This document shows, one piece after another, positions 17,933-31,494 of a stretch of 64,000 nt of DNA. The DNA is from Minisyncoccota bacterium (lineage in GTDB: Bacteria; Patescibacteriota; Minisyncoccia; Phycocordibacterales; CALRHW01): assembly GCA_046350795.1 (NCBI GenBank), contig JAXLZT010000001.1, forward strand, positions 309,780 through 373,779. Direction: 5' to 3'. The position numbers and the translations under genes were made by a program. The notes beneath the pieces are model-generated. The model searched no databases. It was given only the letters and a program-made list of their open reading frames with translations, and had not been told where the DNA came from. Position 1 is the stretch's first letter. Every line of letters starts with the position of its first letter.

Positions 17933-18901
17933 TTGTTATCCACAAAAAAATCGTTCAAAATGCTTGTTCGAAAAGTTATACTTATAGCAATGAATAACGA
18001 GCTCTATTTTGAAGGAAAAAAGTACATCTCGGCTAAACGAGCTTCTGAATTATCTGGCTATAATTCGGATTATATCGGACAACTCTGTCGTGGGAACAAA
18101 ATTGATGCTAGACGTGTCGGAAGGGGTTGGTTTATTGGAGAAAATTCTATTTTAGAACATAAAAAAAATGCTTCAGAAAAAGTGAGAGGAACCATATCTT
18201 TTCCACCAACAGTAAGCCACTATTTTGATTCAATTTCTGAAAAGGTAAATACTCCCGATCCATCTCATCTTTCTCTGTCCTCTATCTTTGATCCAAAGCT
18301 TAAACAAGCATTGTTTTATTTAGCTCTTGTTCCTTTTGTATCAGCGATATTTTTCTTAGTTAGTATTTCTTATAACAAAAGTTTTCAAGCAAATGTAGCA
18401 GTGGTTTCTGAGAAAATAGTTTCTTTTCAACAAAATCTTGTAGCCAATACAGCGTCACATGTGACTGACTATGTGACACTTGTTGATCAATCATCAGATG
18501 CTTCTTCAGTGAATAAAACATCTTTTGTGATAGGAAAAATTTTTGGCAGTATAGCAAAATCTTTTAATCGCTTGGCTTTGGGTACATATCGTTTTGTGTC
18601 AGCATTGTTTAACTTCGATACGGTAAACACTTTTGTGATGCGTGACACAAATCATTTTGATGGTGTCGCGGATACCGGTACTACAAAAGATTTGGGTGAT
18701 GGTCGTATCGGCATAGTGACATCTCCAAGTACCGGTAATTCAATGGCAGATGAAAGGCTTAAACAAAAAATTAAAGATTCATTTTCAGATGAGACAAAAG
18801 TATATCCAGATGACACAGGCACATCTGGTGTAATAAAGCCTGTATTTAAAAAATCATCTGATCAGGATTATTTGTATGTGGTGGTACCAGTGAGTCCGTA
18901 G
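17933..18901 (+). CDS. hypothetical membrane protein (N-terminal HTH-like segment, one TM helix, Ser/Thr-rich exterior)
   Basis: The ORF has a hydrophobic segment 'LFYLALVPFVSAIFFLVSISY'. No family was recognised, and the start is uncertain (an alternative Met is at MNNELYF). Confidence 0.4.
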   Translation: MLSTKKSFKMLVRKVILIAMNNELYFEGKKYISAKRASELSGYNSDYIGQLCRGNKIDARRVGRGWFIGENSILEHKKNASEKVRGTISFPPTVSHYFDSISEKVNTPDPSHLSLSSIFDPKLKQALFYLALVPFVSAIFFLVSISYNKSFQANVAVVSEKIVSFQQNLVANTASHVTDYVTLVDQSSDASSVNKTSFVIGKIFGSIAKSFNRLALGTYRFVSALFNFDTVNTFVMRDTNHFDGVADTGTTKDLGDGRIGIVTSPSTGNSMADERLKQKIKDSFSDETKVYPDDTGTSGVIKPVFKKSSDQDYLYVVVPVSP

Positions 18902-18996: not shown

Positions 18997-19674
18997 ATGA
19001 GAAAAATAAATGTAAGACAATCAATAGCCACAAGTTTCTTCATTACTCTTACATTGGCGTTTGGTTTTGGGATTATAGAACCAGCGATTACGAGAGCTAT
19101 TGAAGATCAGTTTACTATCACACAGACAATCACTTCAGAAATTTCATTCGTTACAACAACAAACGATGTGGTGATGTCAGGTTCTATTGCCGGTCTCACT
19201 GGAGGTGTGGCATATGGATCTACTACCGTAAGAATCTTTACCAACGATAATGCAGGATTTACTGCAACAATAAAAGCAAGTAGTTCTCCTGCTATGCAAG
19301 GAAATTCTCAAGGTGGAAGTATAGCTGATTACACACCAGCTGTAGCTGGTATACCAGACTATGCGTATTCAGTACCTACCGGCGAAGAGTTTGGATTTAC
19401 TGTGTCAGGAAGTTCTACTTCTTATATGGCGCAAAAGTTTCTAGATAATGCTTCTAACGCATGTAACTTTTCTGGGGGATCTGATACAGGTTCTTCAGCA
19501 ACATGTTGGATGGGTCTATCAACTGTAGCTACTTCCACTCTCGTATCTAATACATTTACTGCTGCTTCAGGTGCAACATCAACATTTGTATTTAGAACAA
19601 CTGTAAATTCTGGTAGCTCACTTCCAGAAGATACATATGTAGCTACAACGACAATTACAGCTACTACAAACTAA
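18997..19674 (+). CDS. secreted beta-rich surface protein, paralogue A (signal peptide; Thr/Ser-rich)
   Basis: It has a signal peptide (FFITLTLAFGFGIIEPAITRA). It shares conserved blocks with 20652..21419 (ITGG..GST.V, TA(T/S)I.ASSSPA, ADYT, PDY.(Y/F)SV, NACN..GSDT...CW..LST, Y.ATTT.TA). Confidence 0.6.
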   Translation: MRKINVRQSIATSFFITLTLAFGFGIIEPAITRAIEDQFTITQTITSEISFVTTTNDVVMSGSIAGLTGGVAYGSTTVRIFTNDNAGFTATIKASSSPAMQGNSQGGSIADYTPAVAGIPDYAYSVPTGEEFGFTVSGSSTSYMAQKFLDNASNACNFSGGSDTGSSATCWMGLSTVATSTLVSNTFTAASGATSTFVFRTTVNSGSSLPEDTYVATTTITATTN

Positions 19675-19683
19675 TTAATTCCG

Positions 19684-20649
19684 ATGAAAGCAAAACAAAA
19701 AAAATACATATTCAGATTGGCCGTTTCAGTCATTGCTATTGTTCTTTTTCTTGTGTCAAAGGGTTTTGTTTCTGCTTATGTGATAGAAACAATTCCTGGA
19801 CAAGATGTATTTGGAGACTTTGTTGCCGGTCCTGGAAAAGTTGAATTAGAAGTAAAACCAGGAGAAAGTGTGACAAGGAATATTACAGTGACAAACAGAA
19901 TGGGCGACACACGTTTTTTCAATTTAGATGTAGAGGATTTTACTGGCTCTAGTGATACAGAGACACCAGTAGTTCTCCTTGGTGATGAAAAGGGACCATA
20001 TTCTCTAAAAGATTATATTTCTTTTCCAGAAAAAACATTTGAATTGAAGCATGGTCAACGTGCTGTCATACCTGTAACAGTATCTGTGCCATCAGATGCA
20101 CAGCCAGGTGGTCTATATGGTAGTGTCCTCTCAAGTACTGTTTCAAAGCCAGGACAAAATGGTGGTGCAAAAAATTCCATTATTGCTCGTATAGGAACAT
20201 TGTTTTTTGTTACTGTACCTGGTCCAGTGAATCATGAGGGATCTCTTAAGGAATTTTCGACAAAGGGTTTGCAAAAGCTCTTTGGGTCTGGACCTATAGG
20301 TTTTAGATTACTTTATGAAAATAAAGGAAACGTTTACGTGAATCCATCAGGAGAAATTCGTATTCGTAATCTGATGGGAAAAGAAGTTGCAAACATTGAG
20401 GTTGAGCCTTGGTTTGCAATGCCAAACTCACTTCGTTCACGCGAGGTAGAGTGGAAAAGTTCTTTCTTAATTGGAAAATACACCGCAACAGCATCTATAG
20501 ATAGAGGATATGACAATATTGTAGATACAATGGAGTTTTCTTTTTGGGTTATCCCAGTAAAACTCTTGGCTCTTTTTGTTGTCGTGCTCGCAATATTTAT
20601 TTTGGGCGTAAGATTTATAATCACTCGATTTGAGATCAGGAAGAAGTAA
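19684..20649 (+). CDS. cell-surface protein with signal peptide and C-terminal TM anchor (Ig-like/DUF916-DUF3324-like architecture)
   Basis: It has an N-terminal signal/TM segment, a predicted beta-rich ectodomain (VELEVKPGESVTRNITVTN...DVEDF), and a C-terminal hydrophobic anchor 'LLALFVVVLAIFILGV' followed by a basic tail. Confidence 0.55.
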   Translation: MKAKQKKYIFRLAVSVIAIVLFLVSKGFVSAYVIETIPGQDVFGDFVAGPGKVELEVKPGESVTRNITVTNRMGDTRFFNLDVEDFTGSSDTETPVVLLGDEKGPYSLKDYISFPEKTFELKHGQRAVIPVTVSVPSDAQPGGLYGSVLSSTVSKPGQNGGAKNSIIARIGTLFFVTVPGPVNHEGSLKEFSTKGLQKLFGSGPIGFRLLYENKGNVYVNPSGEIRIRNLMGKEVANIEVEPWFAMPNSLRSREVEWKSSFLIGKYTATASIDRGYDNIVDTMEFSFWVIPVKLLALFVVVLAIFILGVRFIITRFEIRKK

Positions 20650-20651: not shown

Positions 20652-21419
20652 ATGTCTAAGACAAAGATTTACATTTCATCATTTATCTTAACAGTGCTTT
20701 TTGCTTGGATTATTTCTGAAAAAATTTCTTTTGCTCAAATGACCGGTACTGCTTATAAAATTCAAAGCGACAGTATAAATTTTGGAGGAGGGTATTCTAC
20801 TTCCACTACTTATAGAGGAGAAAGTACTTTAGGAGAAATGTCTACAGGAGACTCGGAGAGCACAAACTACAAAATGTATGCTGGTTATCAGCAGATGCAA
20901 AGGGTATATATCGCCATCTCTGCTGTGTCAGATGTGACTATGAGTTCAAGTCTTGGCGGTATTACTGGAGGTACTTCAAATGGTTCTACAAATGTGACAG
21001 TGACTACAGATAGTCCGTCAGGATATCAACTCACTATTACAGCTAGTTCATCACCAGCCTTGGTTTCTGGTTCAAATAGTTTTGCGGATTATACGGTGGG
21101 TACACCTGGTACCCCTGATTACAATTTTTCTGTTCTCGCTACTGATTCTGAGTTTGCTTTTTCTCCAGAGGGTACAGATATTGCAAACAAGTATAAAGAT
21201 AATGGCACAAATGCTTGTAACACTGGATCGAGTGACACAGCAGATAAGTGTTGGGATGCACTTTCTACAAGTGCTCAGGTTATCGCAAATAGAACTTCTG
21301 GTAACCATCCTTCCGGTACGGTGACCACTATAAAGTTTCGTGCAGAGTCTGGTGCATCACATTTACAGCCAGAAGGTGTTTACACAGCCACTACTACCGT
21401 AACAGCATTACCTCTATAA
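20652..21419 (+). CDS. secreted beta-rich surface protein, paralogue C
   Basis: It is a paralogue of 18997..19674 (same ordered motif blocks) and has a signal peptide. Confidence 0.6.
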   Translation: MSKTKIYISSFILTVLFAWIISEKISFAQMTGTAYKIQSDSINFGGGYSTSTTYRGESTLGEMSTGDSESTNYKMYAGYQQMQRVYIAISAVSDVTMSSSLGGITGGTSNGSTNVTVTTDSPSGYQLTITASSSPALVSGSNSFADYTVGTPGTPDYNFSVLATDSEFAFSPEGTDIANKYKDNGTNACNTGSSDTADKCWDALSTSAQVIANRTSGNHPSGTVTTIKFRAESGASHLQPEGVYTATTTVTALPL

Positions 21420-21424
21420 AAATA

Positions 21425-22984
21425 ATGACTAGGTTTATCAAAATAATCTTTATAGCAATAATAGCATGTGGTTTCTTTTCTTTTACTCATGCAGCAGAAG
21501 ATACATTTCAGATAACCCAGACCATTATTAGTTCGGATTCAACAGCTCCTTCTGTGCCGACAAATCTTGTAGCTACTGCAGTATCTAGTTCTCAGATAGA
21601 TCTTTCATGGACAGCTTCTACGGATGTTGTGGGTGTCACGGGATATCAAGTATTTAAAGATTCAGTTTTTCTCGCTACATCTACTGGTACAACATATTCA
21701 AGCACAGGACTTTCTCCAGAAACAGCTTACACATACACAGTGACCGCGTTTGATAGTTCATTAAATATATCTGCACAGTCAAATCCAGCCACAGCGACCA
21801 CTCTAGCAGTAGAGGTTGCTCCTCCTACTGATACGGGCGGTAGTAGTGGAACACAAATGTTGATTCTTCTAAATCTCACAGTTGAACCCTCTCTGTACGG
21901 TTCTCTTATACAGTTTGAGACCAATCTGTATTCTCAGGCGGTAGTTTCTTGGGGGCTCACTCCAGATTATGAAATGGGAAGTCTAGCAGAGCAGTCTCTC
22001 ATGACAAATCACTCTATTAATATAGAGGGGCTCACTCCAGGTACTCTTTACTACTTTAAAATAGATCTCACTGATAATTTTGGACGGAAGCTTTCTCTAA
22101 ATAATCAGACATTTACTACAAAGTCTTTGCCGGATACTACGCCACCACAAAACGTTACAAATCTGTATGCGATAGGAAATGAGCAGACCATCAATCTATC
22201 ATGGAACAATCCAAACCTTGATTTTGATGAAGTACGTATTGTGCGTTCAGACAAATTTTATCCACAAGATTTGTTTGATGGAAAAATAATATACGAAGGT
22301 AGTGATGAGCAATTTCCAGATACAGACGTTATATATGGAAAATGGTATTACTACACACTCTTTGTAAAAGATTCCTTTGGCAACTATTCATCTGGAGCGG
22401 TGGCAAAAGCGAGACTCTATAAGATAGGTGAAAAAAAAGAAGAGGGAAATCTGTTTGAAGATATAAAAGAAATCGCAGGGGCGCTAGTCCATCCACTTAT
22501 AAAAGGTTTGACACTTCTTGATTTGGATTTTTTCCAAAACGGAAAAAAGCTCACTGTAAATTCAAATACTGTAGAGATACAGGGAGACAGAGAGTTAAAA
22601 ATTTCTCTAGCATACAACAAAGTGCCAGAAATTTTAAAAACCATTGCTCTTACTATGAGAGATCCGGATGATAAGACAAAAACTTTTTCTTTTCTACTCC
22701 GGGTAAACAAAGACAAGACAGCGTATGAAGCGACCATTGCGCCTCTCGGCCGATCAGGCAACTTCGAGTTTGGTATTGCTATCCTAGATCACAAAAATCA
22801 GGGATTAAAAAAACTAGCCGGAGTCATTGTGTCACTAGTGCCACATCTCGGGCCAGAGACAGATATTTCTTGGGTAATGTTTATTGAATGGATAAAAAAT
22901 AATTTTGCGACAATCATTGTTACATTGCTTCTCATTGTCTCAATTTACTTTGGTTTTAGGTTTGCACGTGCACTTAAAAAATAA
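21425..22984 (+). CDS. surface protein with fibronectin type III domains and C-terminal TM anchor
   Basis: FN3 signatures are 'PSVPTNLVATAVSSSQIDLSWTAS...GYQVF...TYTYTVTAFD' and a second copy 'PPQNVTNLYAIGNEQTINLSWNNP'. The N-terminal post-signal motif 'AEDTFQITQTI' is shared with paralogue A ('AIEDQFTITQTI'). A C-terminal TM helix is present. Confidence 0.6.
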   Translation: MTRFIKIIFIAIIACGFFSFTHAAEDTFQITQTIISSDSTAPSVPTNLVATAVSSSQIDLSWTASTDVVGVTGYQVFKDSVFLATSTGTTYSSTGLSPETAYTYTVTAFDSSLNISAQSNPATATTLAVEVAPPTDTGGSSGTQMLILLNLTVEPSLYGSLIQFETNLYSQAVVSWGLTPDYEMGSLAEQSLMTNHSINIEGLTPGTLYYFKIDLTDNFGRKLSLNNQTFTTKSLPDTTPPQNVTNLYAIGNEQTINLSWNNPNLDFDEVRIVRSDKFYPQDLFDGKIIYEGSDEQFPDTDVIYGKWYYYTLFVKDSFGNYSSGAVAKARLYKIGEKKEEGNLFEDIKEIAGALVHPLIKGLTLLDLDFFQNGKKLTVNSNTVEIQGDRELKISLAYNKVPEILKTIALTMRDPDDKTKTFSFLLRVNKDKTAYEATIAPLGRSGNFEFGIAILDHKNQGLKKLAGVIVSLVPHLGPETDISWVMFIEWIKNNFATIIVTLLLIVSIYFGFRFARALKK

Positions 22985-22987: not shown

Positions 22988-25900
22988 ATGAATTTCATTA
23001 TTAAAAACATAATAAAAGCAAGACGTCTTTTCAAAAAGAGCGTTGTTGTTTTTGTGGTGTTTGTAATGGTGATCACTCAGATTTTTGCTGGTGGAATTGT
23101 TTTCAAAAACAATATTGCAGAGGCGGCGATAAATAAACAGATTAATTATCAAGGAAAACTTACAAATACAAGCAACGTGGCTGTGGCAGACGGCACATAC
23201 CACATGAAGTTTTATCTATATACTGTGGCGACGGGCGGATCACCTGTATGGACTGAGGATAGAAGTACTGCTGTCGGAGATCGTGTGGCTGTTACTAACG
23301 GTTTGTTTAGTGTAATGCTCGGTAGCTCTACACCGCTTACTAGTGTTGATTTCAATCAGACTCTTTATCTTGGCGTAGAAATAGGTGGATCATCAGGTTC
23401 TCCTTCATGGGATGGCGAAATGACTCCTAGAAAAGTAATAGGCGCAGTACCCGCTGCTTTTGTGGCTGATACTCTAGACAATATTTCAAGCGAGCAGTTT
23501 TTGCGAGCTGATGCAAGCAATTCAACATCTACCGCTACATCATGGCTTTCTTTTGTACAAAACGGTGCTGGCAAGATAGCTGAATTTTTTGGTCCTAGTT
23601 CTGCATCTGTGCTTTCTATATTAAGTGGAGGAAACGTTGGTGTGGGCACATCATCTCCATATTCAAAACTTTCTGTGGCAGGAAATGTTGTTGCAAATAA
23701 TTTTTATGCAACCTCATCTAATTCTTACAACTATTTCATGGGCACAACTACAGTTGGTACGCTTAGTCCTTCTTCAAAACTCACCGTATCTGAGGGTAAT
23801 TATCTGGTAGAAATAGCTGATTTGGATGATCAGAGGGGTCTGCATGTTTCTGATGGAGGTAACTCTGCAAGTATAGTAGACTCATCAGCTGGCGCTGGAA
23901 TAAGTGCTACAGGTGGCACCTATGGAGTGTTGGGTTCAAATAACTCTGCTAGTGGATATGCGATTTTTGCACAACAAGACAATTCTGCTGGTTATGGAAT
24001 CTGGTCATCTGGTGGTCAAAATTATTTCCAAGGAAATGTTGGTATTGGAACATCTTCTCCTTATGCGCCACTTTCTGTACTTGGTCAAATAGTAGGATCA
24101 TATTTCACAGCCACAACATCTATAGCATCTACATTCCCATATGCTTCATCTACTGCGCTCACCGTATCTGGCACAGGATATTTTGGGACTGCTTCAACAA
24201 CAAACCTCACCGTTTCTTCAGCACCAAACTGTAGTGGATCAAGTGCTCTAAATACAAATTCATCAGGAGTAGTGTCCTGTGGAGCTATTACAGGATTTTC
24301 TACTTTCTCTTATCCTTTCACTTCAGCCACAAACTTCGGAGTAAATACTTCAGCTACATCTACAGCACTCTGGGCACAAGCTGGTATATTTGCTTCTTCT
24401 ACTTCGTATTTCCCACTAGGTACTTGGAGATCAGATGGTTTTGTGGGTATCGGCACATCTTCTCCTTTGTATACTTTGCATGTTGCTTCTACTACTAGCG
24501 CTACCACAGGTGTGCAGGATGTGATGGCTGTAGAGATTACTACTTCTGGAAACCCAGCTGCTGGTTTTGGTCCAAGTATTCTTTTTAAAGATGCTGGTGC
24601 AAATGCAGATCACTTGGCAAGAATAGCAGCGGTGTATGAAGCGATTTCTGGTGGAGGTGGAACAAAAGGAGGAGCGCTTTCTTTCTACACAAATCCTTCT
24701 GCTACAGCCGGATCAGCAAATCTTGCTGAAAGAATGAGAATTTCTCTTGATGGTAACGTCGGCATCGGCACCACATCTCCATACGCAAAACTTTCTATTG
24801 TAGGTCAGGTAGTAGGTGCATACTTCACTGCAACAACATCTACAGCTTCTACATTCCCATATGCAAGTACTACTGCTTTGACTGTCTCTGGTACTGGATA
24901 TTTTGCTGGATCTGGTATTTGGAATTCTTCTGGTTTCCTTGGTGTGGGAACTACATCTCCATGGGCACAGCTATCAATTAATCCAAACGGTATTGGTTCA
25001 GGTCCATCATTTGCGATAGGTTCTTCTACAAAGACGGATTTTATTGTTTTAAATAATGGTCGGGTTGGTGTAGGTACTACTTCTCCAGCTGGAACATTTG
25101 CAGTGCAAGGTAAAACAGGTGGATCTAACGGTTTGGGCGCTGGTGACAATATTTTCTTGACTGCTGGTACTGGAAATATCGGTAAGGGTGGAAAAGTTAT
25201 TATTACTGGAGGTTTGGGTGGAACAACTGGACTCAACCAAGATGAAGCTGGGGGAGATATTTTGATTACTGCTGGAAGTGCTAATTATGTAGATGGTGTA
25301 GGTAATGGTGGTAACGTATTTATTGATCCAGGTGCAAATTCACCAGGCGGTATTATTGGAAATATTCTTCTCGCTACTACAAATGCTGGCAACGTCGGCA
25401 TCGGCACCACATCTCCGTATGCAAAACTTTCTGTCGTTGGACAAGTCGTTGCGTCATACTTCATCGCAACATCATCTACAGCGTCTACATTCCCATATGC
25501 AAGTACTACCGCTTTGACTGTTTCAGGAAGTGCGTACATCGGATCTCTCAATGGTCCACTTCAAGCAAACAACGGTCTTGTATCCGCAACATCTTCAATA
25601 GGTGTACTGTATGGTGGCACAGGACTTACTTCTGCTCCTTCATATGGTCAGCTTTTATTGGGAAATTCTTCTAGTGGTTACACACTTACCGCAACATCAT
25701 CTCTCGGTCTTTTGAGTAGTTCTGCCATAGGTACAGGATCTATTGGTCAATTTCCATATTATGCTGGATCAGGAAACACACTCACTGCAACATCAGGGGT
25801 AATCATTAATACTTTAGGAAACGTTGGTATAGGTACTACTTCTCCCGCTAATTCTTCAAAGCTTGGTGTCGCGGGTAATACATTTATTGGTGGCACTCTT

Positions 25901-28900
25901 ACTACGACCGGTGCGATTACATCTGGTGCTGGTATTAGTTTGACTGGCGATATAAATATTAGTGCTGCGACAAATAGATCAATAACTGCAAGTGGAGATG
26001 GTGTTACAGCCGGATCTTTCACTATTCAAGGTGTAAACTCTTTCGGCTCTGCGCCAGGCTCATTAAAATTGATAGCTGGAAGTGATGGTGACACTGCAAA
26101 TGCTGGTGCAAATATTTATATAAGTGGAGGAACTGGTTCTAGTGATGGAAATGTAATTCTTGGGCACAATGGTTCTCAGAATATTGGCAACGTTGGCATC
26201 GGCACCACATCTCCATATGCAAAACTCTCCGTCGTCGGCCAAGTCGTTGCGTCATACTTCACAGCGACATCATCTACAGCGTCTACATTCCCATATGCAA
26301 GTACTACAATGATCACTGCTACCACAGCAAGTACTACCAATCTAACAATCTCAGGTATATCAGGTTGTAGCGGATCCAACGCTCTTACTACAAATTCATC
26401 TGGCGTCGTAGCTTGTGGAGCTATTTCAGGGGGTGGTGGAACATTCCCATTCACACCTACAACAAACTTCGGAGTAAACACTTCAGCTACATCTACAGCA
26501 CTTTGGGCACAAGCTGGTATATATGCTTCTTCTACTTCTTATTTCCCACTAGGCACTTGGAATTCATCTGGATCACTTGGTGTAGGTACCACATCTCCTT
26601 GGGGACTTTTGTCTGTTCAGGGTCTGTCAGATATTCCTCAGCTTGTTGTAAAAGCAAACAGCACACAAACATCAAATCTCTTTGAGCTAAGAAATAGTTC
26701 TGGATCGAGACTTTCTAGTATTAGTGGTACTGGTTATACATTTAAAGTGAATGAGACTGGTGCTGTGACTACAATAGGTGGATATCCGGGCAGTGAATCT
26801 ACTTATTCTGGCGTTTGGCTAGCGCAATCTTCTCCAAGTGGATCAAATTATTCTTTGTTAGCTGATACTTCTGATACTTACATTAATGCGCCAGTATCCA
26901 ACTTAAGATTCCGTATTGGTAATAGTGAAAAAGTTGTAATTTCTGATTCTTCTGGATTTACTGCGTATGATATTTATTCAACAAACGGTGCTATTTTAAC
27001 AAATAGAAGTGGACAATTTTACATAGACAATTTAAATGCATCTGGGGATATTATTATGCGTCCAGGAAATAAAACAGAAAGTGCTAGATTTACATATGGT
27101 GGTTTTGTGGGAATAGGTACCACATCTCCATGGGCACAGCTTTCTATAAATTCAAACGGTATCACTGGTCCATCATTTGCAATCGGTTCTTCTACCGCAA
27201 CATCTTTCTTGGTGGATAATGGCGGTGGTGTGATGGTGGGTACAACAACACATCTATCTACAGATAAATTGGCTTTAAACGGTGGAAATTTTTATATTAG
27301 AAATCTTACACCACAGTTTGTGTTGCGAGATACCGCGGTTAATGATCAAAACTTTGGAATGAGAATGCAAAGTGGTACGGCCTCATTCTTTAGAGCAAAT
27401 AACGACAGTTCACTTTCTGCTTTCTTGCTTGGTATGGATGTAAATAATGCATACACAGGATTTGCTACATCAGCGCCAAAGGCTCGTATATCTTTGTTGC
27501 GTGGCACAACTGCTGCTGAAGGTATTAATTTTGGAGATGATGTTAATTTATACAGAAGTGCTGCAGATTCACTTAAGACAGACGACAACTTTTATGTAAG
27601 CACAGGAATTGTGCTTGAGGCGGGTTCAAGTGGTCGCATTTATGCAAACGGAGGTTTGGTAAATCTTTCTAGTGCAAGTAATTCACGCGTTCGTACTACA
27701 GATACAGGTGTGGCAATAGATAGAGATATCGCAGATGGTTCTACAGCGCTTTATGTAAAACAAATCAATGCTAGTGCTACAGGTAATATATTTGAATTGG
27801 CAAATAGCTCTGCGACTACAACTGTATTTACTCAGGCTGGTTTGCTTGGGTTGGGTACTACATCTCCATTTGCAAAGTTATCTATTCATTTAAAATCTAC
27901 TGAAACATACGGAAATATTTTTGCTATTGCTTCTTCTACAGCGAGCGCAACCACAACACTATTTACTGTATCCAACACAGGAGTAACAACCATAGGTGAT
28001 TCTGCTGGTACTGGAGATTCAAATATGCAGTTTGCAAATGACAATGATGCATGGTCAATAGGTTATTCTTCTGCAAATAAAGCGTTTAACATAGCATCTT
28101 CTACTTCTATTTCTACAAACGTTGGATTTACAATAACAAAGGGCACTTCTTTGGCGGTTGGAATTGGTACTACCACACCGTGGAAAGCTTTTTCTGTAAA
28201 CGGCGCCGTTGGTTTTGATGGTCTTACAAGCTCTATAGGAGCCGGATCACTTTGTCTAACTTCAAATAAAGAAGTTGTTTACAATTCAGGTACAGATGCA
28301 TGTTTGTCATCTCTACGCAGTACAAAACACGATATCACAGCTCTTCAGGTAGATGCTTTGTCTTTGATTAATGGTTTGGAAAGTGTGTCTTTCGTATACA
28401 ACGATGGCGATGGTCGTGTCAGATATGGATTTATTGCTGAGGATACTGCAGCTGTAGATCCGCATTTGTCTACATATAATGAATTCGGTAATTTGAGTGG
28501 TATTGATGATCGTGCTATTGCATCTATTTCTGTAAAAGCTATCAAGCAACTAAATATAAATCTAGAGAGCCTGGCTAGTTCAACCCTTGTTTTCGATGAA
28601 GATGCTGTAGAAGGTTCATCAGCTTTCTTTGCTAAAAAGTTCTTCGACAACGTCTTTGCGCGTGTTACAGAATTTTTTGCTGATGCTACAAATGGTGTAG
28701 GAAATATGTTTGCGAATGTATTTATGGCAAAAGAGAAAATCTGTGTTGATGATCAATGTTTGACAAAAGACGATGTAAAGAAGCTTTTGATTATGGTTAA
28801 TAATTCGAATTTTAATAATGAAGATGGTGAAGATGAGGGTGGTTCAAATGGTCACGACAATAGCTCTGGTTCGCCTGTTATTAAATTAAATGGTGAAGAG

Positions 28901-29356
28901 ACTGTGAATATTTTTGTGGGAGATGATTATCAGGATGAAGGTGTAACTATCACTGATGATGAGGATGATAACCTAAGCTATAATATTTCTTTAGATAATG
29001 AGAGCCCTGTAGATCCAGAAGATTTTGAATTGGATACTGATTATCGTGGTGAGCATGAGTTGGTCTTTAGTACAACGGATAGTGATGGAAATACAAGTAC
29101 AATTACTCGTACGGTTATTGTAAAAGAGAAAAATGATAGCTCCGGTGGTGGAAATGGTGGTGACGATGATAGTGGTGATAATTCTGGTGGTGACTCAGGC
29201 GGTAACTCAGGAGGTGATTCATCTGACAATACTGGTAATGATGGTGGTTCTGATGGTGGGGGTGATGCAGATTCAGGTCAGCGTAATGATAAATTGGATA
29301 GCGGTTCTGGTGATAATGCGGGATTTTCAGGAGATGAAAAATCTTCAGAAATTTAA
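22988..29356 (+). CDS. giant (2122 aa) repeat-rich fibre-like surface protein with C-terminal intramolecular-chaperone (peptidase S74-like) domain, Ig-like (DUF5011-like) domain and acidic Gly/Ser/Asp-rich tail
   Basis: It has an N-terminal signal-anchor. It contains at least 5 copies of the ~45-aa repeat 'NVGIGTTSPYAKLSVVGQVVASYFTATSSTASTFPYASTTALTVSG'. Near 28.3-28.57 kb the block 'SSLRSTKHDI...SFVYNDGDGRVRYGFIAEDTAAVDPHL...ISVKAIKQL' matches the consensus of the tail-fibre/endosialidase auto-cleaving chaperone domain (S.DxRxKxxI ... GFIAQEV...). This is followed by 'PVIKLNGEETVNIFVGDDYQDEGVTITDDEDD...TSTITRTVIV' (DUF5011-like). Confidence 0.85.
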   Translation: MNFIIKNIIKARRLFKKSVVVFVVFVMVITQIFAGGIVFKNNIAEAAINKQINYQGKLTNTSNVAVADGTYHMKFYLYTVATGGSPVWTEDRSTAVGDRVAVTNGLFSVMLGSSTPLTSVDFNQTLYLGVEIGGSSGSPSWDGEMTPRKVIGAVPAAFVADTLDNISSEQFLRADASNSTSTATSWLSFVQNGAGKIAEFFGPSSASVLSILSGGNVGVGTSSPYSKLSVAGNVVANNFYATSSNSYNYFMGTTTVGTLSPSSKLTVSEGNYLVEIADLDDQRGLHVSDGGNSASIVDSSAGAGISATGGTYGVLGSNNSASGYAIFAQQDNSAGYGIWSSGGQNYFQGNVGIGTSSPYAPLSVLGQIVGSYFTATTSIASTFPYASSTALTVSGTGYFGTASTTNLTVSSAPNCSGSSALNTNSSGVVSCGAITGFSTFSYPFTSATNFGVNTSATSTALWAQAGIFASSTSYFPLGTWRSDGFVGIGTSSPLYTLHVASTTSATTGVQDVMAVEITTSGNPAAGFGPSILFKDAGANADHLARIAAVYEAISGGGGTKGGALSFYTNPSATAGSANLAERMRISLDGNVGIGTTSPYAKLSIVGQVVGAYFTATTSTASTFPYASTTALTVSGTGYFAGSGIWNSSGFLGVGTTSPWAQLSINPNGIGSGPSFAIGSSTKTDFIVLNNGRVGVGTTSPAGTFAVQGKTGGSNGLGAGDNIFLTAGTGNIGKGGKVIITGGLGGTTGLNQDEAGGDILITAGSANYVDGVGNGGNVFIDPGANSPGGIIGNILLATTNAGNVGIGTTSPYAKLSVVGQVVASYFIATSSTASTFPYASTTALTVSGSAYIGSLNGPLQANNGLVSATSSIGVLYGGTGLTSAPSYGQLLLGNSSSGYTLTATSSLGLLSSSAIGTGSIGQFPYYAGSGNTLTATSGVIINTLGNVGIGTTSPANSSKLGVAGNTFIGGTLTTTGAITSGAGISLTGDINISAATNRSITASGDGVTAGSFTIQGVNSFGSAPGSLKLIAGSDGDTANAGANIYISGGTGSSDGNVILGHNGSQNIGNVGIGTTSPYAKLSVVGQVVASYFTATSSTASTFPYASTTMITATTASTTNLTISGISGCSGSNALTTNSSGVVACGAISGGGGTFPFTPTTNFGVNTSATSTALWAQAGIYASSTSYFPLGTWNSSGSLGVGTTSPWGLLSVQGLSDIPQLVVKANSTQTSNLFELRNSSGSRLSSISGTGYTFKVNETGAVTTIGGYPGSESTYSGVWLAQSSPSGSNYSLLADTSDTYINAPVSNLRFRIGNSEKVVISDSSGFTAYDIYSTNGAILTNRSGQFYIDNLNASGDIIMRPGNKTESARFTYGGFVGIGTTSPWAQLSINSNGITGPSFAIGSSTATSFLVDNGGGVMVGTTTHLSTDKLALNGGNFYIRNLTPQFVLRDTAVNDQNFGMRMQSGTASFFRANNDSSLSAFLLGMDVNNAYTGFATSAPKARISLLRGTTAAEGINFGDDVNLYRSAADSLKTDDNFYVSTGIVLEAGSSGRIYANGGLVNLSSASNSRVRTTDTGVAIDRDIADGSTALYVKQINASATGNIFELANSSATTTVFTQAGLLGLGTTSPFAKLSIHLKSTETYGNIFAIASSTASATTTLFTVSNTGVTTIGDSAGTGDSNMQFANDNDAWSIGYSSANKAFNIASSTSISTNVGFTITKGTSLAVGIGTTTPWKAFSVNGAVGFDGLTSSIGAGSLCLTSNKEVVYNSGTDACLSSLRSTKHDITALQVDALSLINGLESVSFVYNDGDGRVRYGFIAEDTAAVDPHLSTYNEFGNLSGIDDRAIASISVKAIKQLNINLESLASSTLVFDEDAVEGSSAFFAKKFFDNVFARVTEFFADATNGVGNMFANVFMAKEKICVDDQCLTKDDVKKLLIMVNNSNFNNEDGEDEGGSNGHDNSSGSPVIKLNGEETVNIFVGDDYQDEGVTITDDEDDNLSYNISLDNESPVDPEDFELDTDYRGEHELVFSTTDSDGNTSTITRTVIVKEKNDSSGGGNGGDDDSGDNSGGDSGGNSGGDSSDNTGNDGGSDGGGDADSGQRNDKLDSGSGDNAGFSGDEKSSEI
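23634..26310 (+). repeat. intragenic ~140-bp coding repeats (>=5 copies; copies at ~24755, 25391 and 26189 are ~90% identical at nt level)
   Basis: Direct comparison shows aacgt(c/t)ggcatcggcaccacatctcc(a/g)ta(t/c)gcaaaact(t/c)tc... recurring at 24755, 25391 and 26189. More diverged copies lie at 23634 and 24035. Additional repeat pairs are 24335/26468 and 24960/27125. Confidence 0.85.
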
Positions 29357-29362
29357 AAATAT

Positions 29363-30964
29363 ATGAAAAGAACAAAACAAAAAATATATAAATTTACAGT
29401 GTCTCTAATGTTGTTGTTTTTTATATTTTCTTTTAAGAGCGTTTTTGGTGGAGATTATATAAAAACAGTTACAGATTTTATGGCTGATGGTACATGGACT
29501 GCTCCTACTGGAGTGACAAATATATCTATAGAAGGATGGGGTGGAGGCGGTGCGGGTGCAGGTAATACTGCCGATACTGTTTATGGTGAGGGAGCGGGTG
29601 GAGGCGGTGCTTATGCAAAAATAAATTCTTTTACTGTGACTCCTGGATCAGACTACACTGCAGATGTGGGTGCTGGTGGCGTAGGTAGCACTGGTCAAAA
29701 TGTAGACGGTTCGGATACTACTTTCAATAGCACTACCATGGTGGCGGACGGTGGTCTCGGTGGTTCTAATGAAGGTGGTGGCAACGGTGGAGGTGCTGGA
29801 GGTACCACGGGCAATAGTACTGGGGACGTGGAATATGCTGGTGGATCCGGTGGAGCCGGCGGTGGGACTAATATTGGATCTGGTGGAGGTGGTGGAGCCG
29901 GTGGAGCCGGAGGAGCCGGAGGAGTCGGCGGTAATGGTTCTTCGGGTGTGGGAGGAACAGCTGGTGCCGGTGGTTTGGGTCTTGAGGCTATTTATAATTT
30001 TTTATGGAATATTGGTGGGGAAGGAACTACTGGTTCAACCTCTGGACGTAACGGTAATCCCGGTGCTTATCCTGGTGGTGGGGGTGCTGGTGCATATGTT
30101 AACAACAGCACGGATCGCACTGGTGGAAGTGGTACTGCGGGTAAGATAGCTATTACATATGTAGAACCTTCTAGCTCGGGATACCCACAGTTTGTCAGTA
30201 AAAGTGTTTTCGCTACATCTACCGCTACTTCTGCCACAGTACCTTTGCCACCAGGTTATCTAAAGGGAGATCTAATACTTTTTTTTATTGCCGGTAGACC
30301 GTCCGGTAGCGCGGGGTCAAATGACACTATTACAGTACCCGCTGGCTGGACTCAGCGCGGATCACGACAAAGACTTGAAGTGGGTATACTTGATGCAGTT
30401 TCAGAGTTGTGGTACAAGGTGGCTACTTCTACAAATGATTCAAATACTGTGAGCGTTGGAACAGCTTTTTCTGGTACTGAAGGTTGGGTTATGCAGACAT
30501 TTGCTTACCGTGGTGTCAATCAAAGCTCTCCTTTCTCTGCTACAAATGTGGGCGGAACTAATGCATCATCAGTTACTTTTACTCCCACCGGTGCTACTCC
30601 TGCACCATTAAACTCATCAAACAGATCGAGAGTTGTAACTTTTGTATTATCTACTGATAATAATATGCTCGCTTTTGATTCATCTAGAGGATTTCTTACT
30701 CGTGCTGGATCAAATGAGGCTGTCGGATCTACGATTGGATCAACAGCTGTTGCCCCCGCAGTTTCTCTATATGTTGCTGATCAAGCAACAACCACTACGA
30801 GTGCTGCTACCATGCCCGTTTTTGAACAAGTGATTAATGGAGCCGATGGTTGGCTGTATATTAGTGAAGCTCTTGAGCCTGCACCACCATCAAAAAATCT
30901 AGTTACCTTTGGTGCTAAAATTTTAAAAATAATTGGAGGTAAGTTGATACTAAACCAGCAATAA
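29363..30964 (+). CDS. secreted glycine-rich protein with 'TWTAPTGVTNISIEGWGGGGAG' motif (Gly_rich-type, as in actinophage minor tail proteins)
   Basis: It has a signal peptide and long Gly-rich tracts (GGSGGAGGGTNIGSGGGGGAGGAGGAGGVGG). Its start is 7 nt after the giant gene's stop, so it is probably co-transcribed. Confidence 0.7.
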   Translation: MKRTKQKIYKFTVSLMLLFFIFSFKSVFGGDYIKTVTDFMADGTWTAPTGVTNISIEGWGGGGAGAGNTADTVYGEGAGGGGAYAKINSFTVTPGSDYTADVGAGGVGSTGQNVDGSDTTFNSTTMVADGGLGGSNEGGGNGGGAGGTTGNSTGDVEYAGGSGGAGGGTNIGSGGGGGAGGAGGAGGVGGNGSSGVGGTAGAGGLGLEAIYNFLWNIGGEGTTGSTSGRNGNPGAYPGGGGAGAYVNNSTDRTGGSGTAGKIAITYVEPSSSGYPQFVSKSVFATSTATSATVPLPPGYLKGDLILFFIAGRPSGSAGSNDTITVPAGWTQRGSRQRLEVGILDAVSELWYKVATSTNDSNTVSVGTAFSGTEGWVMQTFAYRGVNQSSPFSATNVGGTNASSVTFTPTGATPAPLNSSNRSRVVTFVLSTDNNMLAFDSSRGFLTRAGSNEAVGSTIGSTAVAPAVSLYVADQATTTTSAATMPVFEQVINGADGWLYISEALEPAPPSKNLVTFGAKILKIIGGKLILNQQ

Positions 30965-31014: not shown

Positions 31015-31375
31015 TTGAGTCTTGTGTTGGATGATTGCTGTGGGCGCAAGCTCATAGAGGAAAGTCCGAACATACGGTCGCGCCTTCAAAAGCGTGACAA
31101 GAGTAGCGGGTAACACCCGTCCGGAGCAATCCGCGAGATGCGAACAGAGACGTCGCAAAGCGAAAGTGATGCGATATCCAAAGACGCCTTAAAACGATTT
31201 TGGATAAGCTCGCATGGCAACATGTGAGTTGCAACGGCTAAATTCTTACTTGTATGCAAGGCCGTGCTCTGCGCAAGCAGAGAGTGCCGCTTGATCCACT
31301 CGGTAACGAGATGGACAGATAAATAATCATCGTCCGCAAGGATACAGAATTCGGCTTATAGACACAAGACAAACA
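31015..31375 (+). ncRNA. rnpB: RNase P RNA (bacterial type A-like)
   Basis: Conserved boxes are 'GAGGAAAGUCCGAAC' (P4 5' strand) and 'ACAGAAUUCGGCUUAUA' (P4 3' strand). The P1 helix is GTCTTGTGT (31019-31027) pairing with ACACAAGAC (31362-31370). It is a GC-rich patch in an AT-rich intergenic region with a terminator right after. The track ORFs 30781..31158(-) and 31052..31234(-) fall inside it and are considered spurious. Confidence 0.8.
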
Positions 31376-31384: not shown

Positions 31385-31412
31385 GGCCCGCCTAAAGCGG
31401 GTCTTTGTGTTT
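31385..31412 (+). terminator. rho-independent terminator after rnpB
   Basis: The sequence is ggCCCGCctaaaGCGGGtctttgtgttt. Confidence 0.7.
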
Positions 31413-31494
31413 GAGTAGGTATAAAAATAGATTGAGTTATAGCCACCGATTTTATATAATAGTATGTATTAAGTCATTTATCTTTATAAAAAAT

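What the first reader, a model, noticed from the sequence alone, without database searches (positions are those of the whole stretch)
22988..30964. Giant repeat-built fibre protein with phage tail-fibre-type auto-cleaving chaperone domain, followed by a glycine-rich minor-tail-like protein: candidate host-attachment fibre
The 2122-aa protein is built from many copies of a ~45-aa 'NVGIGTTSPYAKLSVVGQVV…TFPYASTTALTVSG' module. Near its C-terminus is a clear match to the intramolecular chaperone/peptidase S74 motif (S-x-x-R-x-K-x-x-I … GFIAEDTAAVDPHL), the domain that trimerises and then auto-excises from phage tail spikes and endosialidases. After it come an Ig-like DUF5011-type domain and an acidic GS/D tail. 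The next gene encodes a Gly-rich protein with the 'TWTAPTGVT-ISIEGWGGGGAG' motif typical of actinophage minor tail proteins. A cellular protein using tail-fibre assembly logic suggests a trimeric, self-processing surface fibre. That is attractive as the organ of attachment to a host cell in an episymbiont, and it sits in an operon ending at rnpB. Near-identical DNA repeats (~90%) also make the gene recombinationally variable.
Basis: partly seen in the sequence, partly recalled or inferred. Interest (0 to 1): 0.65.

Follow-up and report, generated by a model that had tools for sequence, protein, structure and literature searches.

The report
Self-cleaving phage-like cell-surface fibre locus
A tiny, probably host-dependent bacterium (Paceibacteria) encodes a 2,122-residue secreted fibre built like a phage tail fibre, with a self-cutting folding domain, in a gene cluster conserved across its lineage, which makes it a strong but untested candidate for how these cells grip a host.

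Summary
ORF 22988-29356 (2122 aa) has a Peptidase_S74 hit above Pfam's cut-off and a DUF5011 Ig-like domain. ORF 29363-30964 has a Gly_rich_2 domain, and rnpB follows. The Ser1775/Lys1780 pair is invariant in 32 homologues.

Two details are wrong. There are only four good copies of the ~45-aa module, plus 13 short core motifs. The DNA repeats are 67-85% identical, not ~90%.

New here: a profile of the repeated motif matches only the trimeric MAT fibres of the predator Bdellovibrio in the whole PDB (E 1e-15). The gene is chromosomal, not prophage. It ends a cluster (HTH/TM protein, two unknown secreted paralogues, a DUF916-like membrane protein, an fn3 membrane protein, then the fibre) that sits beside obg-gatB in most of 84 Patescibacteria loci. 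The N-terminal domain is highly conserved and the shaft is mosaic. The Gly-rich neighbour is not conserved; lectin-like genes take its place in three of four other loci examined.

Best reading: a Sec-exported, S74-assembled, self-cleaving trimeric fibre, docked by its N-terminus, with a variable distal end that binds a partner cell. Trimerisation, cleavage and adhesion are inferred. It is a new variant of a known kind.

The parts
17933..18901 (+). Gene A. It has an N-terminal HTH_17/excisionase-like domain, one TM helix, and a conserved C-terminal ectodomain. It is the first gene of the conserved cluster.
   Evidence: The translation is. HTH_17 hits 2 A-family members and PHROG excisionase matches at E 0.003. 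Gene A is present upstream of the fibre gene in 66 of 84 loci. An A-like N-terminus is fused directly to fibres in P0035, P0103 and P0119. A terminator-like palindrome at 17375-17414 separates it from gatB.
18997..19674 (+). Gene B. A 225-aa secreted protein of unknown family and a paralogue of D.
   Evidence: No Pfam family matched any of 80 B/D members, and no PDB match was found. B is found with C in about 55 of 84 loci.
19684..20649 (+). Gene C. A DUF916-like (WxLIP_PGBD-like) protein with a signal peptide, two beta domains and a C-terminal TM helix.
   Evidence: PF06030 scores 22.1 bits, E 1.7e-4, which is below the cut-off of 27.3. Three of 4 orthologues hit it, best 6.4e-6. About 20 of 120 homologues carry a precomputed PF06030 hit, and PGAP names one 'DUF916 domain-containing protein'. 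The architecture matches WxLIP as described in PMC10599100.
20652..21419 (+). Gene D. A 255-aa secreted protein of unknown family and a paralogue of B.
   Evidence: D is present in 76 of 84 loci.
21425..22984 (+). Gene E. It has a signal peptide, an fn3 domain, further beta-rich regions and a C-terminal TM helix. I take it as the likely membrane partner of the fibre.
   Evidence: fn3 PF00041 scores 45.2 bits. E is present in 78 of 84 loci. It is fused in frame in front of the fibre in L001. In 13 of 79 homologues the N-terminal domain starts at about residue 400-700, which I read as the same fusion; I checked this directly only in L001.
22988..29356 (+). Gene F. The giant fibre protein (2122 aa).
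   Evidence: It is identical to an NCBI record named 'MAG: DUF5011 domain-containing protein [Candidatus Paceibacterota bacterium]'.
22988..23125 (+). Sec-type signal peptide (aa 1-46). It has a basic n-region, a hydrophobic core at aa 18-39, and A44-E-A46 before the mature N-terminus.
   Evidence: Read from the sequence. The A-x-A motif is conserved just before 'FNxQINYQG' in the homologue consensus. The cleavage site is inferred from the -3/-1 rule, not computed.
23129..23557 (+). Conserved N-terminal beta-sandwich domain (aa ~48-190). I take it as the presumed cell-proximal docking domain.
   Evidence: It is 54-76% identical across 38 homologues, against about 30% for whole proteins. AF2 pLDDT is about 90-96 for residues 10-110 of the model. 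It matches 37,472 cluster representatives at E<=1e-3. It has no significant PDB or BFVD match.
23630..28192 (+). Fibre shaft (aa 215-1735) with 13 copies of the capping-loop motif G-x-[VL]-G-[IVL]-G-T-x-x-P-x-x-x-L.
   Evidence: A profile of 12 copies hits only Bdellovibrio MAT fibre structures in the PDB: 8OND at 1.1e-15, 8OJN at 9.5e-6, 8OML at 2e-4 and 8OL4 at 3.8e-4. PHROG tail-fibre families 9942 and 18345 also match.
24032..24181 (+). ~50-aa module, copy 1 (aa 349-398).
24752..24901 (+). ~50-aa module, copy 2 (aa 589-638).
25388..25537 (+). ~50-aa module, copy 3 (aa 801-850).
26186..26335 (+). ~50-aa module, copy 4 (aa 1067-1116). It starts a ~150-aa segmental duplication of aa 341-500.
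28310..28585 (+). S74 intramolecular-chaperone / auto-protease core (aa 1775-1866). The predicted nucleophile is Ser1775 (28310-28312) and the predicted base is Lys1780 (28325-28327). The disulfide-type pair C1756/C1772 lies just upstream.
   Evidence: Pfam hit. The residues are invariant. Ser and Lys are present in all 51 motif-bearing homologues. The profile hits phage S74 structures. AF2 pLDDT is 89-96. Foldseek matches MyRF ICA 7DC3 with target-normalised TM-score 0.51-0.55.
28586..28807 (+). Post-S74 amphipathic helices plus a conserved Cys hairpin (ICVDDQCLTKDDVKKLL).
   Evidence: AF2 secondary structure, with pLDDT 52-74. The motif recurs in the homologues listed.
28880..29122 (+). Ig-like DUF5011 domain (aa 1965-2045).
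   Evidence: Pfam hit. AF2 pLDDT is 88-97. Foldseek matches Big_3/PKD/Rib-type domains.
29135..29353 (+). Acidic Gly/Ser/Asp low-complexity tail (aa 2050-2122).
   Evidence: Read from the sequence. A GC-skew peak falls at 28-30 kb.
29363..30964 (+). Gene G. A secreted Gly-rich protein with Gly_rich_2 at aa 44-266 and a second domain at aa ~270-511. It occupies a variable slot.
   Evidence: The gene is kept only in the closest relative, L085. In L001, L003 and L004 the slot holds Laminin_G_3 proteins, and L002 has no such gene after the fibre.
31019..31374 (+). rnpB (RNase P RNA, class A). It is adjacent to the cluster but not shown to belong to it.
   Evidence: No terminator-like site was predicted between gene G and rnpB.

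Best explanation
Gene F encodes a Sec-exported, phage-tail-fibre-like surface fibre of the kind called 'mosaic adhesive trimer' (MAT) in Bdellovibrio.

The proposed steps are these.
1. The signal peptide is removed after A-E-A46.
2. Outside the cell, the C-terminal S74 domain brings three chains into register and templates folding of an intertwined beta-helical shaft. The shaft's edges are closed by the 13 'GxVGIGTTSPxxxL' capping loops.
3. The Ser1775/Lys1780 pair then cuts the chain at Ser1775. This releases the 348-residue C-terminal piece (S74 core, helices, Ig-like domain, acidic tail) and leaves a mature fibre of about 1,730 residues per chain.
4. The strongly conserved N-terminal beta-sandwich holds the fibre on the cell. 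I think it docks on the membrane and wall proteins encoded just upstream: the fn3-TM protein E, the DUF916-like protein C, and B/D.
5. The mosaic shaft and distal end contact a partner (host) cell.
6. The next gene (Gly-rich here, lectin-like in three of four other loci examined) is a variable accessory surface protein.

Shown: domain content, conserved catalytic residues, motif-level homology to MAT fibres, the signal peptide sequence, the chromosomal conserved synteny, and the contrast between a conserved N-terminus and a mosaic shaft.

Inferred: trimerisation, cleavage, docking partners, and host binding.
For: - S74 is above the Pfam cut-off.
- The family profile hits solved phage S74 domains and MyRF.
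- Ser1775 and Lys1780 are invariant.
- The S74 core is modelled confidently and resembles the MyRF ICA domain.
- The repeat-motif profile hits only MAT fibre crystal structures in the PDB, best E 1.1e-15. Caulton et al. describe the same motif as the capping loops of a trimeric beta-helix, together with S74 processing and surface display (PMC10769870).
- The N-terminal domain is 54-76% conserved and follows an A-x-A site, whereas whole proteins are about 30% identical.
- The cluster A-(B-C)-D-E-F lies next to obg-gatB in most of 84 loci from Patescibacteria genomes.
- E and F are fused in frame in L001. The N-terminal domain starts at about residue 400-700 in 13 of 79 homologues, which I read as the same fusion.
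- Intergenic gaps from B to G are 2-9 nt, and a terminator-like hairpin follows gatB.
- Module content differs between close relatives.
Against: - No experiment or multimer model was possible, so trimerisation and cleavage are unproven.
- The shaft is modelled at low confidence as a monomer (pLDDT 46-67).
- S74 is not terminal as in phage fibres and the 13 S74 MATs. It is followed by about 260 more residues, including a well-folded Ig-like domain. It is odd to discard that.
- Asp at +1 of the usual S-D-x-x-x-K motif is Leu here.
- Homology of the N-terminal domain to the MAT N-terminal domain could not be tested.
- Nothing shows binding to a host. A conserved, apparently single-copy locus could equally be a structural envelope component.
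- B/D have no recognisable family.
Confidence: 0.6

Rival explanations
1. The fibre is a structural envelope component of the cell, such as a surface coat, a spacer or an S-layer-associated fibre. On this view it is not a host-recognition adhesin. Its S74 domain only serves assembly outside the cell.
For: The locus is conserved beside housekeeping genes in most of the 84 loci, and each of the best 80 loci comes from a different contig. There is no paralogue in this 64-kb window. The neighbour C resembles a peptidoglycan-binding WxLIP domain.
Against: The shaft and tip are mosaic and diverge fast even between close relatives, while the N-terminus is conserved. That pattern is typical of receptor-binding proteins. 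The closest characterised relatives are adhesive fibres (PMC10769870). Lectin-like genes follow the fibre gene in L001, L003 and L004.
Confidence: 0.17
2. The S74 domain acts only as a folding and trimerisation chaperone and is not cleaved. Alternatively, cleavage is regulated. Either way the Ig-like domain and acidic tail would remain part of the mature distal end and would form the true tip.
For: S74 is internal. About 260 residues, including a confidently folded DUF5011 Ig-like domain, lie after it. Homologues carry 170-530 residues after the Ser. The +1 Asp of the S-D-x-x-x-K motif is replaced.
Against: Ser and Lys are invariant in 32 aligned homologues and present in all 51 motif-bearing homologues, which argues for retained catalysis. 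All characterised S74 domains self-cleave (PMC10769870).
Confidence: 0.12
3. The region is a remnant of a prophage or tailocin. On this view genes F and G are a tail fibre and its assembly or minor-tail protein.
For: PHROG tail-fibre families hit F, and a 'tail fiber assembly' family hits G. S74 and Gly_rich_2 domains are common in phages.
Against: No other phage gene flanks it; the neighbours are obg, gatB, murJ, rnpB and lepA. The same chromosomal position recurs in dozens of genomes. Both proteins have N-terminal export signals, which virion fibres assembled in the cytoplasm lack. tblastn finds no match in 50,697 phage records.
Confidence: 0.03
4. The protein is a shed or released product. 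It could be a decoy for phages, or a secreted filament whose released C-terminal fragment is the active molecule, rather than a cell-bound adhesin.
For: The signal peptide is probably cleaved and there is no sortase, lipobox or C-terminal anchor. The released fragment has its own folded domain.
Against: No toxin or enzyme domain was detected. The conserved N-terminal domain, the membrane-anchored partners and the E-F fusion argue for retention on the cell. A sub-class of fibres is directly membrane-anchored by an A-like N-terminus.
Confidence: 0.06

Closest known systems
Bdellovibrio bacteriovorus MAT (mosaic adhesive trimer) fibres, S74 subgroup (e.g. Bd3182; Caulton et al. 2024, PMC10769870)
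   Same: It is a cellular, not viral, protein. It has a signal peptide followed by a conserved N-terminal beta domain. It has a long shaft carrying the same capping-loop motif; my profile hits only MAT structures in the PDB, best E 1.1e-15. The composition is mosaic. It has an S74 domain with a Ser/Lys pair. The organism lives on other cells.
   Different: The organism is a monoderm-type Patescibacterium rather than a diderm predator. The protein is about twice as long. S74 is internal and is followed by helices, a Cys hairpin, an Ig-like domain and an acidic tail, whereas the 13 S74 MATs terminate in S74. I saw one fibre gene at this conserved locus, against 21 MATs listed for B. bacteriovorus HD100. 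It sits in a dedicated conserved operon with membrane proteins. Homology of the N-terminal domains was not tested.
C-terminal intramolecular chaperone / Peptidase S74 domains of phage tail fibres and tailspikes (K1F endosialidase 3GW6, T5 pb1 8HQZ/4UW8, 8JOV, 6F45)
   Same: The HMM membership, the Ser-x4-Lys pair, the G-[FL]-I-A-E motif, and the position directly after a beta-helical fibre all match.
   Different: The protein is exported by Sec and would assemble outside the cell rather than in the cytoplasm of an infected host. There is no virion context. There are extra domains after S74. No BLAST-level similarity to any deposited phage was found.
Myelin regulatory factor (MyRF) ICA domain, 7DC3
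   Same: It is a non-viral use of the S74 fold and has the capping-loop motif. As here, S74 is internal and further sequence follows it.
   Different: MyRF is a eukaryotic membrane-bound transcription factor, and cleavage frees the N-terminal trimer from a C-terminal membrane anchor. Here no C-terminal anchor is present.
WxL / WxLIP (Csc) cell-surface protein clusters of Firmicutes (PMC10599100, PMC1534035)
   Same: Gene C has the WxLIP architecture: a DUF916-like domain, a second beta domain and a C-terminal TM helix. It is flanked by small secreted proteins and followed by large multidomain surface proteins. A Gly_rich_2 homologue in Komeilibacteria ends in a true WxL domain.
   Different: B and D show no WxL signal: 0 of 80 members hit the family, and hhalign gives probability 1.9%. 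The DUF916 hit of this window's protein is below the cut-off. No LPXTG protein is present.
Gly_rich_2 (PF21722) proteins, including phage tail-associated ones
   Same: The domain hit is above the cut-off and the protein matches a PHROG tail family.
   Different: The protein has a signal peptide and a cellular context, and it has no match in phage records. Its second domain is shared with only a few Patescibacteria proteins.

Membership tests
Peptidase S74 / intramolecular chaperone auto-processing domain | Match to the family HMM above the curated threshold | tested here: met
   PF13884 scores 30.4 bits against a cut-off of 22. A family profile hits solved S74 domains 8JOV at 1.9e-14, 8HQZ at 1.2e-8, 6F45 at 1.5e-8 and 7DC3 at 9.8e-4.
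Peptidase S74 / intramolecular chaperone auto-processing domain | Catalytic Ser-Lys pair spaced S-x4-K, conserved in relatives | tested here: met
   S1775 and K1780 are invariant in 32 sequences. Both residues are present in all 51 motif-bearing homologues among the 120 best hits. The usual Asp at +1 is Leu here.
Peptidase S74 / intramolecular chaperone auto-processing domain | Fold like solved S74/ICA domains | tested here: inconclusive
Peptidase S74 / intramolecular chaperone auto-processing domain | Domain is the C-terminal end of the protein | tested here: not met
   348 residues lie between Ser1775 and the C-terminus, of which about 260 are beyond the S74 core. Homologues have 170-530. 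MyRF is a precedent for an internal S74.
Peptidase S74 / intramolecular chaperone auto-processing domain | Trimer-dependent autoproteolysis | not testable with these tools
   This needs expression of aa ~1600-2122 with and without S1775A, or proteomics.
Bdellovibrio-type MAT fibre | Repeated capping-loop motif of the trimeric beta-helix (V-G-G/N-pi-x-x-P-x-x-x-L) | tested here: met
   There are 13 copies. The profile hits only MAT structures in the PDB: 8OND at 1.1e-15, and 8OJN, 8OML and 8OL4 at <=4e-4. The motif list in Supplementary Fig. 18 of PMC10769870 agrees.
Bdellovibrio-type MAT fibre | Signal peptide followed by a conserved ~130-aa beta-rich N-terminal domain | tested here: inconclusive
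   An analogous arrangement is present: a signal peptide followed by a conserved beta-sandwich at aa 48-190. Homology to the MAT N-domain could not be tested because I had no full-length MAT sequence and afdb50 was unavailable.
Bdellovibrio-type MAT fibre | Homotrimeric fibre displayed on the cell surface | not testable with these tools
   Only monomer AF2 was available, and the shaft pLDDT is 46-67.
Phage virion tail fibre (prophage or tailocin gene) | Located in a phage structural gene module | tested here: not met
   The flanks are obg, gatB, murJ, rnpB and lepA. The same chromosomal synteny recurs in most of the 84 loci. There is no match in INPHARED phages.
Gly_rich_2 (PF21722) domain proteins | HMM match above threshold | tested here: met
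   48.4 bits against a cut-off of 24.3, aa 44-266.
Actinophage minor tail protein | Sequence similarity to annotated phage minor tail proteins | tested here: not met
   tblastn against 50,697 phage records found no match at E<=1e-3. There is only a PHROG 863 'tail fiber assembly' profile hit at 2.7e-10.
WxL / WxLIP surface cluster (for upstream genes B-C-D) | DUF916-DUF3324-TM protein (WxLIP) | tested here: inconclusive
   This window's C scores 22.1 bits, below the cut-off of 27.3. Three of 4 orthologues hit it at up to 6.4e-6, and about 20 of 120 homologues carry PF06030. DUF3324 was not detected.
WxL / WxLIP surface cluster (for upstream genes B-C-D) | WxL-domain proteins in the cluster | tested here: not met
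   None of 80 B/D members hit PF13731. hhalign against a bona fide WxL region gives probability 1.9%.

The most novel reading that the evidence does not exclude
The cluster A-B-C-D-E-F next to obg-gatB could be a lineage-wide, vertically inherited host-attachment organelle of Paceibacteria. It would consist of a conserved membrane and wall platform (the DUF916-like protein, two novel secreted paralogues, and an fn3-TM protein) that displays one exchangeable, S74-assembled MAT-like fibre. The mosaic shaft and tip of that fibre, together with the variable lectin or Gly-rich genes downstream, would set host specificity. In addition, the S74-released C-terminal fragment (Ig-like domain plus acidic tail) would be a second functional product rather than waste. 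This would be an attachment system distinct from the type IV pili currently invoked for Patescibacteria.
Probability: 0.3. Interest if true: 0.8.

Novelty: new variant of a known kind. Interest (0 to 1): 0.6.

Why it matters
Paceibacteria/Parcubacteria are among the most abundant uncultivated bacteria. They are thought to live attached to other cells, yet no attachment determinant beyond type IV pili has been proposed for them. No paper in the searched library links Patescibacteria with S74 fibres.

This locus offers concrete, testable candidates:
- a fibre with a predictable cleavage site (Ser1775);
- a conserved docking domain found in more than 37,000 protein clusters;
- a syntenic set of partner genes.

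It also extends the 2024 discovery of phage-like MAT fibres in Bdellovibrio to a second, unrelated lineage that lives on other cells. That suggests the tail-fibre assembly logic was recruited more than once, or is very old, in cell-cell recognition. The mosaic shaft could serve as a marker for host range in metagenomes.

Tried and rejected
- **B/D as WxL-domain proteins:** rejected on the evidence available. hhalign of a B/D alignment against the WxL region of P0124 gave probability 1.9%. None of 80 members hit any relevant Pfam family. The PDB profile search gave only E 0.47-0.7.
- **Prophage origin:** rejected, because there is no phage context, the chromosomal synteny is conserved, and tblastn against phages found nothing.
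- **Gly-rich protein as an obligate partner of the fibre:** rejected, because it is kept only in the closest relative and lectin-like genes take its place in three of the four other loci. A Gly_rich_2 gene does lie near obg-gatB in one other genome, L088, so a loose association cannot be excluded.
- **N-terminal domain as a known fold or phage adaptor:** there was no BFVD hit at E<=1e-3 and no significant PDB sequence hit; the best was T4 gp34 at E 0.09.
- **Tandem-repeat expansion as the source of variability:** TRF found no array of the module.

Full report
**Observation.** The two ORFs exist exactly as described: 22988-29356 (2122 aa) and 29363-30964 (533 aa).

- Peptidase_S74 at aa 1778-1826, 30.4 bits against a cut-off of 22.
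- Bact_surface_Ig-like (DUF5011) at aa 1965-2045, 45.1 bits against 27.
- Gly_rich_2 at aa 44-266 of the second protein, 48.4 bits against 24.3.

RNase P RNA lies at 31019-31374. The acidic G/S/D tail can be read directly.

Two details do not hold:
- The ~45-50-aa module has four good copies (aa 349, 589, 801, 1067) and one degenerate copy (aa 215). The copies are dispersed, not tandem.
- These copies are 68-86% identical in protein and 67-83% in DNA. The best pair reaches 85% by the repeat finder, and the longest exact repeat is 41 nt. That is not ~90%.

What recurs many times (13x) is a short core, G-x-[VL]-G-[IVL]-G-T-x-x-P-x-x-x-L. There is also a ~150-aa segmental duplication, aa 341-500 against aa 1060-1210.

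**The S74 domain.** I aligned the region aa 1620-2050 with 31 homologous C-terminal regions. Ser1775, Lys1780, Gly1814 and Ala1817 are invariant.

Among the 120 best full-length homologues, 51 carry a recognisable S-x4-K...G[FL]IAE motif, and all 51 have both Ser and Lys.

A profile of this alignment finds solved phage tail-fibre S74 domains: 8JOV at E 1.9e-14, T5 pb1 8HQZ at 1.2e-8, and 6F45 at 1.5e-8. It also finds the MyRF ICA domain at 9.8e-4.

An AlphaFold2 model gives pLDDT 89-96 for the S74 core and 88-97 for the Ig-like domain. The shaft part scores only 46-67, which is what I would expect if the shaft folds only as an intertwined trimer. Foldseek is dominated by Ig-like hits, and MyRF ICA comes in at target-normalised TM-score 0.51-0.55.

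One departure from the phage pattern stands out. S74 sits 348 residues from the C-terminus. It is followed by amphipathic helices, a conserved Cys hairpin, the Ig-like domain and the acidic tail. Homologues have 170-530 residues after the Ser.

**The fibre.** The single-sequence PDB search gave Bd2133 of Bdellovibrio as the top, weak hit.

A profile built from 12 copies of the repeated motif hits nothing in the whole PDB except Bdellovibrio MAT fibre structures:
- 8OND at E 1.1e-15, in three stretches.
- 8OJN/8ONB/8ONC at 9.5e-6.
- 8OML at 2e-4.
- 8OL4/8ONF at 3.8e-4.

Caulton et al. (PMC10769870) show several things about these fibres:
- The motif forms the capping loops on the edges of an intertwined trimeric beta-helix.
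- 13 of the 21 MATs end in an S74 domain that self-cleaves at the catalytic Ser.
- All MATs have a conserved ~130-aa beta-rich domain after the signal peptide.
- MATs are displayed on the predator's surface with mosaic, swappable tips.

The protein here has the same overall layout. It has a Sec-type signal peptide with an A-x-A site, then a beta-sandwich domain at aa ~48-190 modelled at pLDDT ~90-96, then the motif-bearing shaft, then S74. PHROG tail-fibre families also match the shaft.

**Family and organism.** The protein is identical to an NCBI entry named 'DUF5011 domain-containing protein [Candidatus Paceibacterota bacterium]'.

At least 852 homologues of 1,200-3,700 aa were found. Every organism name given for them is Patescibacteria or an unclassified bacterium. 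About half carry PF13884, and PGAP calls some 'tail fiber domain-containing protein'.

The N-terminal domain is 54-76% identical across homologues, whereas whole proteins are about 30% identical. Its profile finds 37,472 cluster representatives at E<=1e-3, and 1,036 at <=1e-30. In species-representative genomes it finds at least 514 loci. Of the best 80, 77 are labelled Patescibacteria and three only 'bacterium'.

**Genomic context.** Everything points to a cellular locus. The flanks are MYG1, obg and gatB upstream, and rnpB, a TPR protein, murJ and lepA downstream.

Between gatB and the fibre lie five genes on the same strand. They are separated from gatB by a terminator-like palindrome, and the gaps from B to G are 2-9 nt. 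The genes are:
- A: an HTH_17-like domain, a TM helix and an ectodomain.
- B and D: secreted paralogues with no family.
- C: DUF916/WxLIP_PGBD-like, with a C-terminal TM helix.
- E: an fn3 domain and a C-terminal TM helix.

In 84 loci carrying the N-terminal domain, upstream genes were found as follows:

| Gene | Loci with it (of 84) |
|---|---|
| E | 78 |
| D | 76 |
| A | 66 |
| gatB | 57 |
| C | 55 |
| obg | 49 |

Many of the loci that lack a gene are simply truncated contigs.

E is fused in frame to the fibre in L001. In 13 of 79 homologues the N-terminal domain starts at about residue 400-700, which I read as the same fusion; I checked this directly only in L001.

A sub-class of fibres replaces the signal peptide and N-domain with an A-like HTH plus TM anchor.

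By the gene-fusion argument, these fusions suggest that A and E are physical partners or anchors of the fibre.

C belongs to a large, well-conserved family (1164+ homologues). About 20 of the top 120 carry a precomputed PF06030 hit. Its architecture parallels the WxL-interacting protein of Firmicutes (PMC10599100). However, B and D show no WxL signal.

**The Gly-rich gene.** It has only two close homologues. The closest relative, L085 (76% identity), keeps the order fibre, Gly-rich gene, then a ~480-nt gap collinear with the rnpB region here, TPR, murJ.

In L001, L003 and L004 the genes after the fibre encode Laminin_G_3 lectin-like proteins, and in L002 an unrelated gene follows.

A Komeilibacteria homologue shares the second domain and ends in a WxL domain. 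Another Gly_rich_2 protein lies just upstream of obg-gatB in L088.

I therefore read gene G as the occupant of a variable accessory slot, not as a fixed partner. Neither protein matches any of 50,697 phage records by tblastn.

**Variability.** Against L085, the C-terminal 431 residues are 81% identical.

At DNA level the pattern is uneven:
- Window 27123-27869 is 91.6% identical to L085, while the flanks average 76.4%.
- L085 carries about 557 nt of extra module sequence.
- The upstream shaft is not collinear.

So the gene is mosaic between close relatives, but through module gain, loss or exchange rather than through near-identical internal repeats.

**Mechanism (best estimate, confidence about 0.6).**
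1. The protein is exported by Sec and the signal peptide is removed.
2. The S74 domain drives trimerisation and folding of a capped beta-helical shaft outside the cell.
3. The chain cleaves itself at Ser1775, releasing the 348-residue C-terminal fragment.
4. The fibre is retained through the conserved N-terminal domain on the platform encoded upstream.
5. The variable distal region contacts a partner cell.

By analogy with Bd2133 (370 residues spanning 142 Å), a mature chain of about 1,730 residues would give a fibre of very roughly 60-70 nm. That figure is an inference.

The domain content, conserved residues, motif homology, synteny and conservation pattern are shown. Trimerisation, cleavage, docking and adhesion are not.

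**Rivals.**
- A non-adhesive structural envelope fibre.
- A chaperone-only or regulated S74 that leaves the Ig-like domain as the true tip.
- A shed product.
- A prophage remnant, which the synteny and export signals effectively exclude.

**Comparison and novelty.** Functionally and by motif homology the closest known system is the Bdellovibrio MAT family. The S74 domain is a bona fide member of Peptidase S74 by HMM and catalytic residues, although it is not terminal.

I do not file the protein as a phage tail fibre, because the context test is not met. I do not file B and D as WxL proteins, because that test is not met either.

No paper in the searched library links Patescibacteria with S74 fibres. 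Homologues are only auto-annotated.

I rate it a new variant of a known kind. It is a MAT-like, S74-processed fibre in a monoderm ultrasmall lineage. It is about twice the size of the Bdellovibrio fibres, has extra post-S74 domains, and is embedded in a conserved dedicated operon that has not been described.

Noticed in passing
window 17933-22984: Five-gene cluster A-E, tightly packed upstream of the fibre gene. It is conserved in the same order next to obg-gatB in most of 84 Patescibacteria loci. B and D are paralogous secreted proteins with no Pfam or PDB match. C is DUF916/WxLIP-like.
   Followed up: partly
L001 9980-21094; homologues P0085, P0031, P0030, P0051, P0055, P0089, P0026, P0106, P0088, P0032, P0037, P0019, P0048: In L001 the fn3-TM protein (gene E here) is fused in frame in front of the fibre. 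In the 13 listed homologues the conserved N-terminal domain starts at about residue 400-700 instead of about 40, which I read as the same fusion but did not check individually.
   Followed up: partly
homologues P0035, P0103, P0119 (N-termini): A sub-class of S74/DUF5011 fibres lacks the signal peptide and N-domain. It starts instead with a gene-A-like HTH_17 domain plus a TM helix. This suggests the 'HTH' module is a cytoplasmic anchor rather than a regulator.
   Followed up: no
window 27123-27869 vs L085 369-1115: One fibre segment is 91.6% identical to the closest relative, while the flanking 7.6 kb averages 76.4%. L085 has about 557 nt of extra module sequence next to it. This is a possible recent exchange of a fibre module.
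   Followed up: partly
window 28586-28807 (aa 1867-1940): A conserved post-S74 element: amphipathic helices followed by a Cys hairpin, 'ICVDDQCLTKDDVKKLL'. Versions of it recur in many homologues (for example 'KLCVGNTCVTADEFLAIV'). Its function is unknown.
   Followed up: no
P0124 / L086 1220-3733: A Komeilibacteria protein combines Gly_rich_2, the second domain of gene G, and a C-terminal WxL domain (25.7 bits, cut-off 25). So true WxL domains exist in Patescibacteria.
   Followed up: partly
L088 9840-12638: A Gly_rich_2 + fn3 protein lies two genes upstream of obg-gatB in another Paceibacteria contig. That puts it on the other side of the same neighbourhood.
   Followed up: no
window 52735-59740 (- strand): A defence island. 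It holds type I restriction-modification genes hsdM (58145-59740), hsdS (56971-58191) and hsdR (53922-56981), with an adjacent Shedu SduA_C-domain protein (52735-53916).
   Followed up: partly
window 3993-6185 and 31405-33924: Two large membrane/TPR proteins. The first has a Wzy_C O-antigen-ligase-like domain plus TPR repeats, and the second has TPR repeats. Similar Wzy_C-TPR genes recur near Gly_rich_2 genes in L086 and L088.
   Followed up: no
window 17375-17414: A perfect 18-bp-stem palindrome flanked by T and A runs, immediately after gatB. It looks like a bidirectional terminator and marks the start of the surface-protein transcription unit.
   Followed up: no
window 28001-30000: A GC-skew spike (0.32, against about 0.0-0.2 elsewhere). 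It is explained by the G-rich codons of the acidic Gly/Asp tail and the Gly-rich gene, not by a replication feature.
   Followed up: partly
fibre aa ~156-190 (window ~23453-23557): The segment 'LDNISSEQFLRADASNSTS...' at the end of the N-terminal domain gives a weak, non-significant profile match (E 0.09) to the T4 long-tail-fibre proximal subunit gp34.
   Followed up: no
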